Assembly (NCBI RefSeq): GCF_003334385.1 | Contig: NZ_QOWN01000005.1 | From: Escherichia coli | Lineage (GTDB): Bacteria > Pseudomonadota > Gammaproteobacteria > Enterobacterales > Enterobacteriaceae | Strand: one strand, 5' to 3' | Length of the DNA stretch: 64,000 bases | In this document: one piece after another, positions 32,007-37,550 of the stretch | Layout: the number at the start of each line of letters is the position of its first letter | Position numbering within the stretch: position 1 is the first letter of the stretch | The notes under the pieces: model-generated | Seen by the model: the letters and a program-made list of their open reading frames with translations, nothing else | What the model was told of the DNA's origin: nothing | The model's database searches: none | Program-made: the position numbers and the translations under genes

Positions 32007-33899
32007 TTACATCACCAGACGGCGAATGTCAGACAGCGTGTTGTTAATGATGGTAATGAAACGGGCACCATCAGCACCGTCGATCACGCGGTGGTCGAAG
32101 GAGAGAGAAATCGGCAGCATCAGACGCGGCACGAACTCTTTACCATTCCACACCGGCTCCATCGCGGACTTGGAAACGCCGAGGATAGCCACTTCCGGCG
32201 CGTTCACAATCGGCGCGAAGTGGGTAGTACCCAGGCCGCCGATGCTGGAGATGGTGAAGCAACCGCCCTGCATTTCGCCCGCAGTCAGCTTACCGTCACG
32301 CGCTTTCTTAGAAATAGTCATCAGCTCGCGAGACAGCTCGATGATGCCTTTCTTGTTGACGTCTTTGAATACCGGAACAACCAGACCGTTCGGGGTATCC
32401 ACCGCCACACCGATGTTGATGTATTTCTTCAGGGTCAGACGCTGACCGTCTTCCGACAGCGAACTATTGAAGCGAGGCATCTGCTCAAGAGCTGCAGCAA
32501 CGGCTTTCATGATGAAGACAACCGGGGTGATCTTCACATCCAGCTTACGTTTCGCCGCTTCTTCGTTCTGCTGTTTACGGAACGCTTCCAACTCGGTGAT
32601 ATCGGTTTTGTCGAAGTGAGTAACATGCGGGATCATTACCCAGTTACGGCTCAGGTTCGCACCAGAGATTTTCTGGATGCGGCCCAGTTCCACTTCTTCG
32701 ATTTCACCAAACTTGCTGAAGTCCACCTTCGGCCACGGCAGCATGCCAGGGATACCACCGCCAGTCGCTGCCGGAGCTGCTTCTGCACGTTTGATAGCTT
32801 CTTTCACGTAAGCCTGAACGTCTTCGCGCAGGATACGACCTTTACGGCCAGTGCCCTTCACTTTCGCAAGGTTAACACCAAACTCGCGTGCCAGACGGCG
32901 GATCAGCGGAGTCGCGTGAACATAAGCGTCGTTTTCAGCAAATTCAGATTTGCCTTCCGCTTTCGCAGCTGGTGCTGCTGCCGGGGCTTCAGCTTTTGCT
33001 GCCGGTGCCGGCGCTGCCGCTTCCTGTTTCGCAGGAGCTGCCGCAGGCGCTGCGCCTTCAACTTCGAAGATCATAATCAGCGAGCCAGTTTTCACTTTAT
33101 CGCCAACGTTGACTTTCAGTTCCTTCACGACGCCTGCAAACGGCGCCGGAACTTCCATAGAAGCTTTGTCGCCTTCTACGGTGATCAGTGACTGTTCAGC
33201 GGCAACTTTGTCGCCCACTTTCACCATCACTTCAGTCACTTCAACTTCGTCACCGCCGATATCCGGAACGTTAACTTCTTTCACGCCAGCCGCTGGTGCA
33301 GGGGCCGCTGCCGGAGCTGCTTCCTGTTTAGCGGCCGGAGCTGCCGCGCCTGCTTCACCCGCGACTTCGAAGACCATAATCAGCGAGCCGGTAGACACTT
33401 TGTCACCCACGTTCACTTTGATCTCTTTCACGGTGCCAGCAAACGGAGCCGGAACTTCCATAGAAGCCTTGTCGCCTTCTACGGTGATCAGCGACTGTTC
33501 AGCTTCAACTTTATCGCCAACTTTCACCAGGATTTCGGTCACTTCAACTTCGTCGCTGCCGATATCCGGAACGTTAACGTCTTTTGCCGCCGCAGCCGCT
33601 GGTGCTGCTGCCGGAGCTGCTTCTTTCTTCTCTTCTGCCTGAGCAGGTGCAGCGTCTGCTGCACCGTCGGCGGAATCGAAAATCATAATCAGTGCGCCGG
33701 TCTGGGTTTTATCGCCAACAGAGACTTTGATCTCTTTAACGATACCCGCCTGCGGAGACGGAACTTCCATAGAGGCTTTGTCGCCTTCTACGGTGATCAG
33801 CGACTGTTCGGCTTCAACTTTGTCGCCCACTTTGACCAGGATCTCGGTGATTTCAACTTCATCAGCCCCGATGTCCGGTACTTTGATTTCGATAGCCAT
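32007..33899 (-). CDS. aceF: pyruvate dehydrogenase E2, dihydrolipoyllysine-residue acetyltransferase
   Basis: 630 aa with three lipoyl domains ([10 protein letters not shown] x3), Ala/Pro linkers and a catalytic domain with the DHR motif. Confidence 0.96.
33051..33899 (-). repeat. three tandem ~300-bp imperfect repeats encoding the lipoyl domains of AceF
   Basis: Protein-level triplication visible in the translation (residues ~1-283). Confidence 0.85.
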
Positions 33900-33913
33900 T
33901 ATTCTTTTACCTC

Positions 33914-36577
33914 TTACGCCAGACGCGGGTTAACTTTATCTGCATCGATGTTGAATTTGGCGATTGCGTCAGCAACCACTTTCTTATCGATTTCGCCACG
34001 TTTAGCCAGTTCGCCCAGCGCCGCAACCACGACATAAGAAGCATCAACTTCGAAGTGGTGACGCAGGTTCTCACGGCTGTCGGAACGACCGAAGCCATCA
34101 GTACCCAGTACGCGGTAGTCGTCAGCCGGTACGTAAGTACGGACCTGCTCAGCGAACAGTTTCATATAGTCGGTAGATGCCACTGCCGGAGCGTCGTTCA
34201 TCACCTGAGCGATATACGGAACGCGCGGAGTTTCCAGCGGGTGCAGCATGTTCCAGCGTTCACAATCCTGACCATCACGCGCCAGCTCGGTGAAGGAGGT
34301 CACGCTATAAACGTCAGAACCTACGCCGTAATCTTTCGCCAGGATCTCAGCTGCTTCACGGACGTGACGCAGGATAGAACCGGAGCCGAGCAGCTGAACT
34401 TTACCTTTGCTACCTTCAATAGTTTCGAGTTTGTAGATACCTTTACGGATACCTTCCTCAGCACCTTCCGGCATTGCCGGCATGTGGTAGTTTTCGTTCA
34501 GCGTAGTGATGTAGTAGTAAACGTTCTCTTGTTTTTCACCGTACATACGCTCCAGACCGTCATGCATGATGACAGCAACTTCGTAAGCGTAAGCCGGGTC
34601 GTAAGAGATACAGTTCGGGATAGTCAGCGACTGAATGTGGCTGTGACCATCTTCGTGCTGCAGACCTTCGCCGTTCAGGGTGGTACGACCGGAAGTACCG
34701 CCGATCAGGAAGCCACGCGCTTGCTGGTCGCCAGCCGCCCAGCACAGATCGCCAATACGCTGGAAGCCGAACATCGAGTAATAGATGTAGAACGGGATCA
34801 TCGGCAGATTGTTGGTGCTGTAAGAGGTCGCCGCTGCCAGCCAGGAACAACCTGCGCCCAGCTCGTTGATCCCTTCCTGCAGAATCTGACCTTTCTCGTC
34901 TTCTTTATAGTAAGCAACCTGCTCGCGGTCCTGCGGGGTGTACTGCTGACCGTTCGGGCTGTAAATACCAATCTGACGGAACAGACCTTCCATACCGAAA
35001 GTACGCGCTTCGTCGGCGATGATCGGTACCAGACGATCTTTGATCGACTTGTTCTTCAGCATCACGTTCAGAGCACGAACGAAAGCGATAGTGGTAGAGA
35101 TCTCTTTGCTCTGCTCTTCCAACAGCGCGCCGAAGTCTTGCAGGCTCGGCAGCTCAAGCTTCTCGGTGAAGTTCGGCTGACGGCTTGGCAGATAACCGTG
35201 CAGTTTCTGACGCTGAGCGTGCAGATAGGTATGCTCTTCAGAACCTTCCGGGAAGGTGATGTACGGCAGTTTTTCGATATCTGCATCAGACACCGGCACA
35301 TTGAAACGGTCGCGGATATGACGCACACCGTCCATGTTCATTTTCTTAACCTGGTGCGCGATGTTTTTACCTTCAGCCGCGTCGCCCATGCCGTAACCTT
35401 TAATGGTATGAGCAAGGATTACTGTCGCTTTGCCTTTGGTTTCCTGCGCTTTCTTGAATGCAGCGTAGATTTTCTTCGGATCGTGACCACCACGGTTCAG
35501 TGCCCAGATCTGCTCGTCAGTCCAGTCTGCAACCAGTGCTGCGGTTTCAGGATATTTACCGAAGAAGTGTTCACGAACGTACGCACCATCTTTCGATTTG
35601 AAGGTCTGGTAGTCGCCGTCAACGGTTTCGTTCATCAGCTGGATCAGTTTACCGCTGGTATCCTTACGCAGCAGTTCATCCCAACGGCTACCCCACATCA
35701 CTTTGATCACGTTCCAGCCAGCACCTTCGAAGATGCCTTCCAGTTCGTTGATGATCTTGCCGTTACCGGTGACCGGGCCGTCAAGACGCTGCAGGTTACA
35801 GTTGATAACGAAGACCAGGTTATCCAGTTTTTCACGGGTAGCGATGGTGATCGCACCTTTGGATTCCGGTTCGTCCATTTCACCGTCACCGAGGAACGCG
35901 TAAACGGTTTGTTTAGAGGTATCTTTCAGGCCACGGTGTTCCAGATATTTCAGGAATTTAGCCTGGTAAATAGCACCAATCGGACCCAGACCCATAGATA
36001 CGGTCGGGAACTGCCAGAATTCCGGCATCAGTTTCGGGTGCGGATAGGAAGAGAGGCCATTGCCGTGAACTTCCTGACGGAAGTTATCCAGCTGCTCCTG
36101 AGTCAGACGACCTTCCAGGAAAGCACGAGCGTACACGCCCGGGGAGATGTGGCCCTGGAAGTAAACCAGGTCGCCGCCATCCTGCTCGTTGCGTGCACGG
36201 AAGAAGTGGTTAAAGCACACATCATAAATGGTTGCGGAAGACTGGAAGGACGCCATATGGCCGCCCAGTTCGAGGTCTTTTTTCGACGCACGCAGCACCG
36301 TCATGATGGCGTTCCAGCGGATAGCTGAACGAATACGGCGTTCCAGTTCCAGATTACCCGGATACTCCGGTTGTTCTTCAACGGGGATGGTGTTGATGTA
36401 GTTGCTGATACCTGTGCCTGCGGCTACGTTTACACCGCCTTTGCGGGCTTCAGCAAGCAGTTGGTCGATCAGATACTGAGCACGCTCAACACCTTCTTCA
36501 CGGATGACCGATTCGATCGCCTGGAGCCAGTCGCGAGTTTCGATCGGATCCACGTCATTTGGGAAACGTTCTGACAT
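33914..36577 (-). CDS. aceE: pyruvate dehydrogenase E1 component
   Basis: 887-aa translation recognised as AceE ([21 protein letters not shown]...). Confidence 0.96.
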
Positions 36578-36737
36578 GGGTTATTCCTTATCTATCTAAT
36601 AACGTTGAGTTTTCTGGAACCTGTCCCATTGAACTCTCGCCGGAAAGCTCAATAAGACAGGTTCTACGTTTAGTTGCCGCGCTTTTATATGCGCTTGATT
36701 TACAACATCTTCTGGATAATTTTTACCAGAAAAATCA

Positions 36738-37502
36738 CTAATTCTTTCGTTGCTCCAGACGACGCAGAGAACGCTCACGGCGGCTCTCTTCACGACTTCT
36801 GTCGAGCAAAATTTCTTCGATAAAGGCCAGATGGCGATGCGATGCTTCGCGCGCTTCTTCCGGCTTACCGGCCATAATCGCTTCAAATATGCGGGTGCGG
36901 TGACTACTCACCAGCGGCAGCATCTCGCGACGCGAATAGAGCAATTCGAAGTTCTGGCGGACATTCTGGGCCAACATCGGCTCCATACACCTTAGCAGAT
37001 GAAGCAGAACCACATTGTGGGCCGCTTCGGTGACGGCAATCTGATACTGGAGTACGGCGTTTGATTCCGCGTCCAGATCGCCAGACTGCTGCGCCAGCTC
37101 TATGGCGTGGTGGAGTTCACGGATGCGTTCCTTGTCTTCATCGGTACTACGCAGCGCGGCGTAATAAGCGGCGATACCTTCCAGGGCGTGTCGTGTTTCG
37201 AGCAAGTCATACTGTGACTCAGGATGGTCGGAGAGCAGCTCCACCAGCGGATCGCTGAAGCTTTGCCATAGGCTGCTCTGGACAAAAGTGCCGCCACCCT
37301 GGCGACGAAGCAACAAGCCCTTCGCTTCGAGACGTTGAATCGCCTCACGCAAGGAGGGACGGGAGACGTCAAACTGTTTTGCCAGTTCGCGTTCCGGTGG
37401 GAGTTTTTCGCCCGGGCGGAGAGTGCCTTCGAGGATCAAAAACTCCAGTTGCTGCTCAATCACATCGGAGAGTTTTGGTTGGCGGATTTTGCTGTAGGCC
37501 AT
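36738..37502 (-). CDS. pdhR: GntR-family pyruvate-responsive repressor
   Basis: Start set at [20 protein letters not shown]... (254 aa); GntR-type HTH. Confidence 0.93.
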
Positions 37503-37533
37503 GAGTTCCTGTCTTAAGCCACTTGCCGAAGTC

Positions 37534-37550
37534 AATTGGTCTTACCAATT
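37534..37550. promoter_or_regulatory. PdhR operator palindrome AATTGGT-N3-ACCAATT
   Basis: Perfect 7-bp inverted repeat 32 bp upstream of the pdhR start; matches the PdhR box as I recall it. Confidence 0.7.

What the first reader, a model, noticed from the sequence alone, without database searches (positions are those of the whole stretch)
33051..33899. Triplicated lipoyl-domain repeat in aceF and its mirror-image Ala/Gly-rich antisense ORF
Seen in sequence: AceF residues ~1-283 are three ~100-residue near-identical lipoyl domains, i.e. ~300-bp tandem DNA repeats. The opposite strand carries a 230-codon open frame (32950-33642, +) rich in Ala/Gly/Ser that mirrors the repeats. Inference: the antisense ORF is a compositional artefact, but the tandem repeats are a recombination-prone substrate that can change lipoyl-domain copy number.
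Basis: partly seen in the sequence, partly recalled or inferred. Interest (0 to 1): 0.25.

Follow-up and report, generated by a model that had tools for sequence, protein, structure and literature searches.

The report
Three repeated lipoyl domains in aceF
This is the textbook triple lipoyl-domain repeat at the start of the E. coli K-12 aceF gene (the core E2 subunit of pyruvate dehydrogenase); the antisense open frame is a by-product of its amino-acid content, and public genomes show the repeat does occasionally lose or gain a domain by recombination.

Summary
The window is E. coli K-12, and aceF (32007-33899, minus strand) is 100% identical to MG1655. Its first ~306 codons are three tandem units of 303-309 bp. 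TRF gives period 303, 2.7 copies and score 910, the only strong tandem repeat in the 64 kb. "Near-identical" is too strong: the folded domains are 73-86% identical in protein and 75-84% in DNA.

The antisense ORF at 32950-33642 exists and starts with TTG. It is Ala/Ser/Thr-rich rather than Gly-rich, and it is an artefact. All 2000 synonymous recodings of AceF left an open frame of at least 238 codons in that frame. Its length and start are not conserved, and it has no promoter-like site or NCBIfam family match.

The recombination inference is supported by natural alleles.
- **Two-domain alleles:** 8 of about 5,424 complete E. coli genomes carry intact ones, with hybrid junctions in the conserved core or the linkers. 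Exact-sequence look-ups find these alleles on up to 454 contigs.
- **Out-of-register deletion:** one clone has a 192-bp in-frame deletion.
- **Four-domain alleles:** these reciprocal products occur in a few draft E. coli assemblies and two complete Salmonella genomes, but in no complete E. coli genome.
- **Related species:** all 78 Enterobacterales species sampled keep three domains, and lip2 and lip3 show partial concerted evolution.

The feature is already known. The intraspecific polymorphism is a modest add-on.

The parts
32007..33899 (-). aceF coding sequence, 630 aa: dihydrolipoyllysine-residue acetyltransferase, the E2p core of the pyruvate dehydrogenase complex
   Evidence: ORF. 100% identical to E. 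coli K-12 MG1655 aceF. NCBIfam equivalog NF008814 scores 1101 bits against a cut-off of 722. Pfam architecture.
33588..33896 (-). Repeat unit 1: lipoyl domain 1 (residues 2-78) plus Ala/Pro/Glu/Lys-rich linker 1 (to residue 104). 309 nt.
   Evidence: PF00364 covers residues 4-73.
33285..33587 (-). Repeat unit 2: lipoyl domain 2 (residues 105-181) plus Ala/Pro linker 2 (to residue 205). 303 nt.
   Evidence: PF00364 covers residues 107-176.
32982..33284 (-). Repeat unit 3: lipoyl domain 3 (residues 206-282) plus the start of linker 3 (to residue 306). 303 nt.
   Evidence: PF00364 covers residues 207-277.
33778..33809 (-). Unit 1 copy of the conserved core GAACAGTCGCTGATCACCGTAGAAGGCGACAA (encodes [11 protein letters not shown], ending at lipoyl-lysine K41). 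This is the longest exact run shared between units and a mapped crossover zone.
   Evidence: The 32-nt exact run shared by units 1 and 2. Junctions of natural 2- and 4-domain alleles fall in or next to it.
33469..33500 (-). Unit 2 copy of the same 32-nt core, ending at lipoyl-lysine K144
33163..33188 (-). Unit 3 copy of the core. It shares a 26-nt exact run with unit 1 and a 23-nt run with unit 2, around lipoyl-lysine K245.
32814..32921 (-). Peripheral-subunit (E3) binding domain, residues 327-362. Not part of the repeat.
   Evidence: PF02817, E = 7.5e-16
32013..32705 (-). Catalytic acyltransferase domain, residues 399-629, with the DHRVIDG active-site motif
   Evidence: PF00198, E = 3.4e-80. 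Motif visible in the translation.
32950..33642 (+). Antisense open frame of 230 codons with a TTG start, rich in Ala/Ser/Thr. Judged non-coding: a shadow of AceF's amino-acid composition.

Best explanation
The region encodes the N-terminal swinging-arm part of E. coli K-12 AceF (E2p). It holds three tandem lipoyl domains, each about 77 residues long and carrying a lipoyl-lysine (K41, K144, K245). Each domain is followed by an Ala/Pro-rich flexible linker. After them come the E3-binding domain and the catalytic core.

The DNA consists of three units of 303-309 bp that arose by ancient tandem duplication. lip1 is an old, separate lineage. lip2 and lip3 are kept more alike within a genome by occasional gene conversion.

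The units still share short identical runs of 23-32 nt around the lipoyl-lysine codons, and 17-18 nt in the linkers. Rare unequal recombination or template switching between units therefore removes or adds a whole domain in frame. This yields functional-looking two-domain alleles, which circulate in natural E. coli lineages, and rarer four-domain alleles.

The 230-codon antisense ORF is not a gene. It stays open because this part of AceF lacks Tyr and His and has few Gln codons in the contexts that would create antisense stops.

Shown here: the repeat anatomy, the natural variant alleles and their junctions, and the shuffle statistics for the ORF. Inferred: the recombination mechanism (RecA-dependent or slippage), and selection that holds the number at three.
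For: - **Identity and architecture:**
- **Repeat statistics:**
- **Codon sharing:** paralogous domains share more identical codons than codon bias predicts. Observed against expected: 38 vs 30.1, 37 vs 28.1 and 48 vs 32.7.
- **Two-domain alleles in complete genomes:** strains C2, C4, VTB97379v and Rb-50 carry lip1 plus a lip2N/lip3C hybrid. DSM 103263 (528 aa) and FDAARGOS_1283 (530 aa) carry lip1 plus lip3, joined in the linker. Strains 01_3327 and 03_3013 (527 aa) carry a lip1N/lip2C hybrid plus lip3. Sources. All are intact ORFs.
- **Different backgrounds:** their flanks differ by up to 26 SNPs in 1560 nt.
- **Not singletons:** the exact sequences are seen on 454, 182, 22 and 17 contigs. 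A 90%-identity cluster of two-domain AceF holds 305 distinct sequences.
- **Reciprocal four-domain products:** lip1-[lip2N/lip1C]-lip2-lip3 (P0001, loci L004 and L005) and lip1-lip2-[lip3N/lip2C]-lip3 (P0003, loci L001-L003) appear.
- **Evidence against an assembler artefact:** L005 is an exact K-12 background, with 0 differences in 3 kb of flanks. Its junction lies in a 5-nt AAAGT between mismatches, where a k-mer collapse could not place it.
- **Salmonella:** two complete chromosomes carry four domains, CP006575 and CP075029. In the latter the two copies of lip3 are 231/231 identical.
- **Concerted evolution:** in 78 species lip1 always groups with lip1. Within-genome lip2-lip3 DNA identity (0.71-0.95) often exceeds orthologous identity.
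- **ORF artefact:**
- **Literature:** E2 chains carry one to three lipoyl domains, and E. coli has three at 73% identity (PMC8421416, PMC6270654). Serratia symbiotica lineages have lost one or two (PMC5013485).
Against: - None of the roughly 5,424 complete E. coli genomes has four domains. The E. coli four-domain alleles rest on draft or metagenome assemblies only.
- Several ENA metagenome four-domain proteins look like inter-species chimeras and are probably misassemblies.
- I could not inspect reads for any variant.
- The same two-domain allele appearing in different backgrounds could reflect horizontal transfer of one allele rather than repeated events. Only about five structurally distinct deletion events are certain.
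- The repeats are about 20% diverged and their identical runs are short. The absolute recombination rate must therefore be low, and it was not measured.
Confidence: 0.9

Rival explanations
1. The two- and four-domain alleles are assembly artefacts, caused by collapse or expansion of a 300-bp repeat. On this view aceF copy number is fixed at three in nature.
For: No four-domain allele occurs in about 5,424 complete E. coli genomes. Many four-domain hits come from metagenome assemblies, and some are clearly chimeric between species. Most junctions lie in the longest shared k-mer, which is also where a de Bruijn graph would mis-join.
Against: - The units share at most 32 identical nt. This is shorter than the k used in the final stages of modern assemblers. 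That statement rests on my own knowledge and was not tested here.
- Two-domain alleles occur in eight finished chromosomes from unrelated projects.
- The exact alleles are seen on 454 and 182 contigs, from different assemblers and sources.
- At least five distinct junction structures exist, including linker crossovers.
- The K-12-background four-domain junction lies in only 5 nt of identity.
- Salmonella Pullorum CP006575 has a mosaic four-domain gene whose duplicated units have since diverged.
Confidence: 0.07
2. Copy-number change arises mainly by RecA-independent replication slippage or template switching at short imperfect homologies, not by RecA-mediated unequal crossover.
For: The 192-bp deletion in the strain 463 clone joins out-of-register VGDKV-coding motifs at a 5-nt GTGGG microhomology. 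The K-12-background duplication has its junction in a 5-nt AAAGT. Deletions outnumber duplications by far, as expected of intramolecular slippage.
Against: Most junctions fall within the 23-32-nt identical core or the 17-18-nt linker repeats, in register. Reciprocal duplication products with the matching hybrid structures exist. Selection against more than three domains could also explain the asymmetry. The data cannot separate the two mechanisms.
Confidence: 0.3
3. The antisense ORF at 32950-33642 encodes a real overlapping Ala/Ser/Thr-rich protein.
For: It is 230 codons long and uninterrupted in K-12. An open stretch exists in the same frame in all 77 species examined.
Against: The open frame is fully predicted by the AceF sequence: 2000 of 2000 synonymous recodings left at least 238 codons open. 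Its length varies from 114 to 439 codons and the start codon is not conserved, even within E. coli. K-12 has only a TTG start, with no Shine-Dalgarno-like sequence in the 40 nt upstream. There is no promoter-like site and no family match. Longer shadow ORFs of the same kind lie opposite aceE, lpd and the rest of aceF.
Confidence: 0.02

Closest known systems
E. coli K-12 AceF (E2p), whose three tandem lipoyl domains were described with the aceF sequence by Guest and colleagues. The 1985 reconstruction paper by Guest et al. (J Mol Biol 185:743) is cited in PMC8421416 and PMC5013485.
   Same: It is the same gene: 100% nucleotide identity, with the same architecture of three lipoyl domains, PSBD and catalytic domain. 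PMC8421416 puts the identity among the three domains at 73%, which agrees with the 73-86% found here.
   Different: Nothing differs in the window itself.
Engineered E. coli E2p chains with altered numbers of lipoyl domains, from the Guest and Perham laboratories. Dave, Guest and Attwood 1995 (Microbiology 141:1839) is cited in PMC10579247 and PMC11754459.
   Same: Whole domains are removed or added in frame between repeat units, and the protein still looks functional. The natural two-domain alleles found here correspond to the engineered ones.
   Different: Those were made in vitro. The alleles here arose naturally and persist in wild lineages, on up to 454 contigs. This happens even though the title of Dave et al. 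states that lowering lipoyl-domain content reduces growth rate and yield.
Between-species variation in lipoyl-domain number: one to three per E2 chain (PMC6270654, PMC8421416), and loss of one or two domains in Serratia symbiotica (PMC5013485)
   Same: The same kind of change: whole-domain gain or loss within the tandem array.
   Different: Here the variation is within one species. All 78 free-living Enterobacterales species sampled have three domains. Four-domain alleles exceed the 'one to three' stated in the reviews.
Shadow (antisense) ORFs opposite highly expressed, codon-biased genes
   Same: A long open frame on the opposite strand that the sense protein's composition explains fully. Similar ORFs lie opposite aceE (757 codons), the rest of aceF (409 codons) and lpd (285 codons).
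   Different: This one shows internal repetition, because it lies over a tandem repeat.

Membership tests
AceF / E2p (NCBIfam NF008814, PDH-complex dihydrolipoyllysine-residue acetyltransferase) | Whole-protein score above the curated equivalog cut-off | tested here: met
   1101.5 bits against a cut-off of 722, covering residues 1-630
AceF / E2p | N-terminal lipoyl domain(s) of the PF00364 type with the lipoylatable lysine in a DKA motif | tested here: met
   Three PF00364 hits with E values from 1e-21 to 5e-23. DKASMEVP motif at K41, K144 and K245.
AceF / E2p | Peripheral-subunit binding domain followed by a C-terminal 2-oxoacid_dh catalytic domain with the DHRxxDG motif | tested here: met
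   PF02817 at residues 327-362 and PF00198 at 399-629. [11 protein letters not shown] is present in the translation.
AceF / E2p | Operon context pdhR-aceE-aceF-lpd | tested here: met
   All on the minus strand: pdhR-like ORF at 36738-37535, aceE at 33914-36577, aceF, then lpd at 30258-31715. RefSeq annotation of identical loci agrees.
AceF / E2p | Lipoylation and acetyl-transfer activity | not testable with these tools
   Known experimentally for this exact protein (PMC8421416). Not testable here for the variant alleles.
Tandem repeat subject to unequal homologous recombination | Head-to-tail direct repeats with shared exact runs long enough to pair | tested here: met
   Period 303-309. Exact shared runs of 32, 26 and 23 nt. 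These are borderline for RecA-dependent exchange; that threshold rests on my own knowledge.
Tandem repeat subject to unequal homologous recombination | Natural deletion and reciprocal duplication products with in-register hybrid junctions | tested here: met
   Two-domain alleles with 2N/3C and 1N/2C hybrids and with linker junctions. Four-domain alleles with 2N/1C and 3N/2C hybrids.
Tandem repeat subject to unequal homologous recombination | Dependence on RecA, and a measurable rearrangement rate | not testable with these tools
   Needs genetics. Some junctions lie in only 5 nt of microhomology, so part of the events may be RecA-independent.
Overlapping antisense protein-coding gene | Open frame longer than the sense protein and codon usage predict | tested here: not met
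   P(at least 238 codons) = 1.000 in 2000 synonymous resamplings and in 2000 permutations, with a mean of about 308
Overlapping antisense protein-coding gene | Conserved start, stop and length among relatives; translation signals; family match | tested here: not met
   Length ranges from 114 to 439 codons and the start codon type varies. No promoter-like site. No Shine-Dalgarno-like sequence upstream. No NCBIfam family.

The most novel reading that the evidence does not exclude
Lipoyl-domain number in E2p is a standing polymorphism within E. coli, not a fixed species character. Intact two-domain aceF alleles have arisen at least five times by recombination between the repeat units. They persist in wild lineages: one 527-aa allele is on 454 contigs and one 529-aa allele is on 182. 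Four-domain alleles, above the 'one to three' of the reviews, appear sporadically in E. coli and Salmonella. This would mean that three domains is not strictly required for fitness in nature, despite laboratory results. It would also mean that lip2 and lip3 evolve in concert. I found no paper reporting this in five of the seven full-text searches run, but the older subscription literature is not covered.
Probability: 0.55. Interest if true: 0.35.

Novelty: already known. Interest (0 to 1): 0.2.

Why it matters
The feature itself is textbook biochemistry, so the main value is closure.

The by-product is modestly useful. Public genomes already contain a natural allelic series of E2p with two, three and four lipoyl domains, including one in an exact K-12 background. 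Junctions are mapped to a 23-32-nt conserved core or to the linkers. This offers ready-made material to revisit why three domains are kept, and a natural example of recombination at the lower limit of homology length.

It also flags an annotation trap. PGAP marks the intact 527-aa two-domain allele as a pseudogene.

Tried and rejected
1. **Four-domain alleles in complete E. coli genomes.** I used two real four-domain genes as queries. Every top hit was a normal 1893-bp gene aligned in two pieces, so there are none.
2. **The plain-region query.** This query could not separate clean one-domain deletions, because BLAST pieces were joined to at least 80% coverage. It revealed only the 192-bp deletion clone. 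Synthetic deletion queries were needed to bring two-domain alleles to the top. A synthetic one-domain query (d13) was built but not run.
3. **The representatives search with one lipoyl domain.** This was meant as a broad copy-number survey. Its top 150 are mostly fragments and are biased towards multi-domain proteins. It shows only that proteins with 2, 3 and occasionally 4 matched stretches exist.
4. **Truncated loci.** The E. albertii (L016) and Dickeya undicola (L092) loci from the species scan are cut off at the 5' end of the gene. They cannot be scored for domain number.
5. **Metagenome chimeras.** Several ENA four-domain proteins (for example P0002, P0010, P0015, P0025) combine E. coli-like and other-genus-like units. 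I treat them as probable chimeric assemblies and not as evidence.
6. **Literature searches.** Searches for natural aceF copy-number variation, concerted evolution of lipoyl domains, or aceF duplications found nothing relevant. The Klebsiella mecillinam and carbapenem papers concern loss-of-function aceF mutations, not domain number.
7. **dN/dS-type test of the antisense frame.** I considered this and rejected it. Its third codon positions coincide with those of aceF, so the test would have little power.
Full report
**What the window is**

The 1893-bp ORF at 32007-33899 (minus strand) is 100% identical to aceF of E. coli K-12 MG1655, and 5,425 of 5,426 complete E. coli genomes match it. Only strain JCL301 matches just a 96-bp remnant. 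It lies in the expected minus-strand order pdhR, aceE, aceF, lpd. It passes the NCBIfam equivalog for the PDH-complex E2 with 1101 bits against a cut-off of 722. Pfam finds three Biotin_lipoyl domains (residues 4-73, 107-176, 207-277), an E3-binding domain (327-362) and the catalytic 2-oxoacid_dh domain (399-629).

**Checking the observation: the repeat**

Tandem Repeats Finder reports one array at 33064-33878 with period 303, 2.7 copies, 80% matches and score 910. It is the only array scoring at least 80 in the whole 64 kb. The repeat finder puts three 300-nt copies in register with spacings of 303 and 309. A diagonal self-match profile of 32900-34000 peaks at offsets 612, 303 and 309 (0.53, 0.50 and 0.47 identical). 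Other in-frame offsets give 0.303 +/- 0.022.

Anchoring on the lipoyl-lysine motif DKASMEVP (K41, K144, K245) gives these units:

| Unit | Window coordinates | Length |
|---|---|---|
| 1 | 33588-33896 | 309 nt |
| 2 | 33285-33587 | 303 nt |
| 3 | 32982-33284 | 303 nt |

"Near-identical" overstates the similarity. The 77-residue folded domains are 78%, 73% and 86% identical in protein (lip1-2, lip1-3, lip2-3) and 77%, 75% and 84% in DNA. This matches the 73% quoted in PMC8421416. The longest exact runs shared by units are 32, 26 and 23 nt. All lie over [12 protein letters not shown] around the lipoyl-lysine.

**Checking the observation: the antisense ORF**

The ORF is exactly as stated: 32950-33642 on the + strand, 230 codons, TTG start. 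Its product is Ala 24%, Ser 19%, Thr 14%, Pro 8% and Gly 8%. It is therefore Ala/Ser/Thr-rich, and it repeats internally because it overlies units 2 and 3.

In this frame an antisense stop needs a sense Tyr codon after a codon ending in T or C, or a His/Gln codon after a codon ending in T. The lipoyl and linker region has no Tyr or His and few Gln. The ORF ends at the GCT-CAG in linker 1. This follows directly from the sequence.

The tests gave these results:
- With the protein fixed and synonymous codons resampled from aceE/aceF/lpd usage, or permuted, the frame stayed open for at least 238 codons in 2000 of 2000 trials each, with a mean of about 308.
- Across 77 Enterobacterales species the open stretch ranges from 114 to 439 codons and the first start codon varies among TTG, ATG and GTG. 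In another E. coli strain the ORF is only 177 codons long.
- There is no NCBIfam match, no sigma-70-like site in 32500-34100 and no Shine-Dalgarno-like sequence upstream of the TTG.

**Does the repeat change copy number?**

A protein search with AceF returned, above the normal 630-aa sequences, about 40 proteins of 723-738 aa with four lipoyl-lysine motifs. Dissection shows the hybrid structures that unequal exchange would produce:
- P0001 (E. coli, 733 aa) is lip1-[lip2N/lip1C]-lip2-lip3.
- P0003, P0011, P0012 and P0014 (E. coli, 727-731 aa) are lip1-lip2-[lip3N/lip2C]-lip3.

Some ENA metagenome versions mix units of different genera. I discount these as chimeric assemblies.

I fetched DNA for both E. 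coli types (L001-L005). Using them as queries, none of the roughly 5,424 complete E. coli genomes has four domains. All best hits are 1893-bp genes aligned in two pieces.

Locus L005 has flanks identical to the window over 3 kb. It is otherwise an exact K-12 aceF with a 309-nt insertion, and its junction lies in a 5-nt AAAGT between mismatches. A k-mer collapse could not place a junction there. L004 has the same protein, but its junction lies inside the 32-nt run, so it is a separate event.

Two complete Salmonella chromosomes also carry four domains. In CP075029 (723 aa) the two lip3 copies are 231/231 identical and are joined in the linker. In S. Pullorum CP006575 (725 aa) the gene is a mosaic of diverged units.

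**Deletions**

A query of the repeat region found a 192-bp in-frame deletion in strain 463. Three sister isolates share it. It joins the VGDKV-coding motif in the second half of lip2 to the one in the first half of lip3, at a 5-nt GTGGG microhomology.

Synthetic one-unit deletion queries then brought intact two-domain genes to the top. Eight complete genomes carry them, annotated with junctions mapped:

| Strains | Protein length | Structure | Crossover site |
|---|---|---|---|
| C2, C4, VTB97379v, Rb-50 | 529 aa | lip1 + lip2N/lip3C | conserved core, about nt 97-149 of the domain |
| DSM 103263 | 528 aa | lip1 + lip3 | Ala/Pro linker DNA |
| FDAARGOS_1283 | 530 aa | lip1 + lip3 | Ala/Pro linker DNA |
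| 01_3327, 03_3013 | 527 aa | lip1N/lip2C + lip3 | conserved core |

Flanking sequence differs by up to 26 SNPs in 1560 nt among the carriers. This points to several origins or to allele transfer. At least five structurally distinct deletion events are certain.

Exact-sequence look-up shows that these are not singletons:

| Allele | Contigs |
|---|---|
| 527 aa, two domains | 454 |
| 529 aa, two domains (C2 type) | 182 |
| 530 aa, two domains | 22 |
| 529 aa, two domains (VTB97379v type) | 17 |
| 528 aa, two domains | 2 |
| 566 aa, 192-bp deletion | 6 |
| 733 aa, four domains (P0001) | 2 |
| 731 aa, four domains (P0003) | 4 |

The 90%-identity cluster of two-domain AceF holds 305 distinct sequences.

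**Related species and concerted evolution**

A scan of one genome per species returned 80 Enterobacterales loci. All 78 that could be scored have three domains, with spacings of 95-126 residues.

lip1 always has a lip1 of another genome as its nearest protein neighbour, so the triplication predates the order. For lip2 and lip3 the pattern differs. Within-genome DNA identity (mean 0.85, range 0.71-0.95) often exceeds orthologous identity to E. coli. Examples are Mixta tenebrionis (0.89 against 0.74 and 0.71) and Leminorella (0.91 against 0.81 and 0.77). Orthologous and cross comparisons are nearly equal.

In K-12, paralogous domains also share more identical codons than codon bias predicts: 48 observed against 32.7 expected for lip2 and lip3. 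Both results point to occasional gene conversion between lip2 and lip3.

**Mechanism**

Shown here: the anatomy, the in-register hybrid junctions, the reciprocal products and the homogenisation of lip2 and lip3.

Inferred: exchange between misaligned units, either between sister chromosomes or within one molecule, at short identical tracts. A minority of events occur at microhomologies and are probably replication slippage.

The excess of deletions over duplications could reflect intramolecular deletion pathways. It could also reflect selection against more than three domains, or both. From memory of the Guest laboratory's work, which I did not read here, three domains gave the best growth and chains with more domains assembled less well. 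The open literature I could read cites Dave et al. 1995 for reduced growth with fewer domains (PMC10579247) and Guest et al. 1985 for one domain being sufficient for activity (PMC5013485).

**Comparison with what is known, and novelty**

The triple lipoyl domain of E. coli E2p is textbook (PMC8421416, PMC6270654). Engineered chains with other domain numbers, and loss of domains in Serratia symbiotica (PMC5013485), are published. Reviews give "one to three" domains per chain.

I found no report of natural two- and four-domain alleles within E. coli or Salmonella. The searchable library omits most older subscription papers.

**Verdict**

The feature is already known, the finding is correct, and its interest is low. 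The natural allelic series is a modest and probably unreported add-on.

Noticed in passing
window 31962-33191 (+), 34055-36328 (+), 30231-31088 (+): Longer shadow ORFs lie opposite the rest of aceF (409 codons, ATG start, directly opposed frame), aceE (757 codons) and lpd (285 codons). In the aceF simulation the directly opposed frame is expected to stay open for about 470-500 codons.
   Followed up: partly
loci L013 and L014 (NZ_CP074961.1, NZ_CP074958.1), aceF: PGAP annotates the intact 527-aa two-domain aceF as a pseudogene ('incomplete; partial in the middle of a contig; missing N-terminus'). Yet the ORF starts with the normal [12 protein letters not shown] and has no internal stop. This is an annotation artefact of a length mismatch, and the exact protein is on 454 contigs.
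   Followed up: yes
window 36580-36693 (+): An Rfam hit to the sRNA family tp2 (103 bits against a gathering score of 50). It lies in the pdhR-aceE intergenic region, on the strand opposite to the operon.
   Followed up: no
window 28442-30187 (+): From its position this ORF is probably yacH (not checked). Its C-terminus holds three repeats of about 35 residues (…RQRIQSASPEQRQAVREKMQ… / …RERIQSASPEQRQVFKEKVQ… / …RQRVQSASPEQRQVFREKVQ…). It also has a His/Asp-rich tract (DDDDHDHHHHDNDDYHHHDGGH), both visible in the translation. TRF did not report it at a score of 80 or more.
   Followed up: no
window 31683-32006 (aceF-lpd intergenic); loci L007-L014: The aceF-lpd spacer comes in two lengths among E. 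coli strains. In the annotated loci lpdA starts about 208 nt or about 325 nt after the aceF stop. K-12 has the long form. This is a roughly 117-nt insertion/deletion polymorphism, possibly a REP-type element.
   Followed up: no
hits H20, H154, H155: Some complete E. coli genomes have aceF spans 12 nt shorter (1881 instead of 1893 nt, or 1089 instead of 1101 nt). This suggests 4-codon indels, presumably in the Ala/Pro linker DNA, which contains short GCAGC/GCTGC-type repeats (families D2, D3 and D5).
   Followed up: no
window 47181-47374 (-), 47778-47847 (-), 53494-53583 (-): Other Rfam hits above gathering score: two adjacent naRNA4 copies (REP-derived), STnc40 and PssrA.
   Followed up: no
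protein P0038 (668 aa, E. coli): A partial 38-residue in-frame duplication inside lip2 (…[18 protein letters not shown]…) gives a fourth lipoyl-lysine motif. It is a second out-of-register rearrangement besides the 192-bp deletion of the strain 463 clone. It is seen on one contig only, and I did not fetch its DNA.
   Followed up: no
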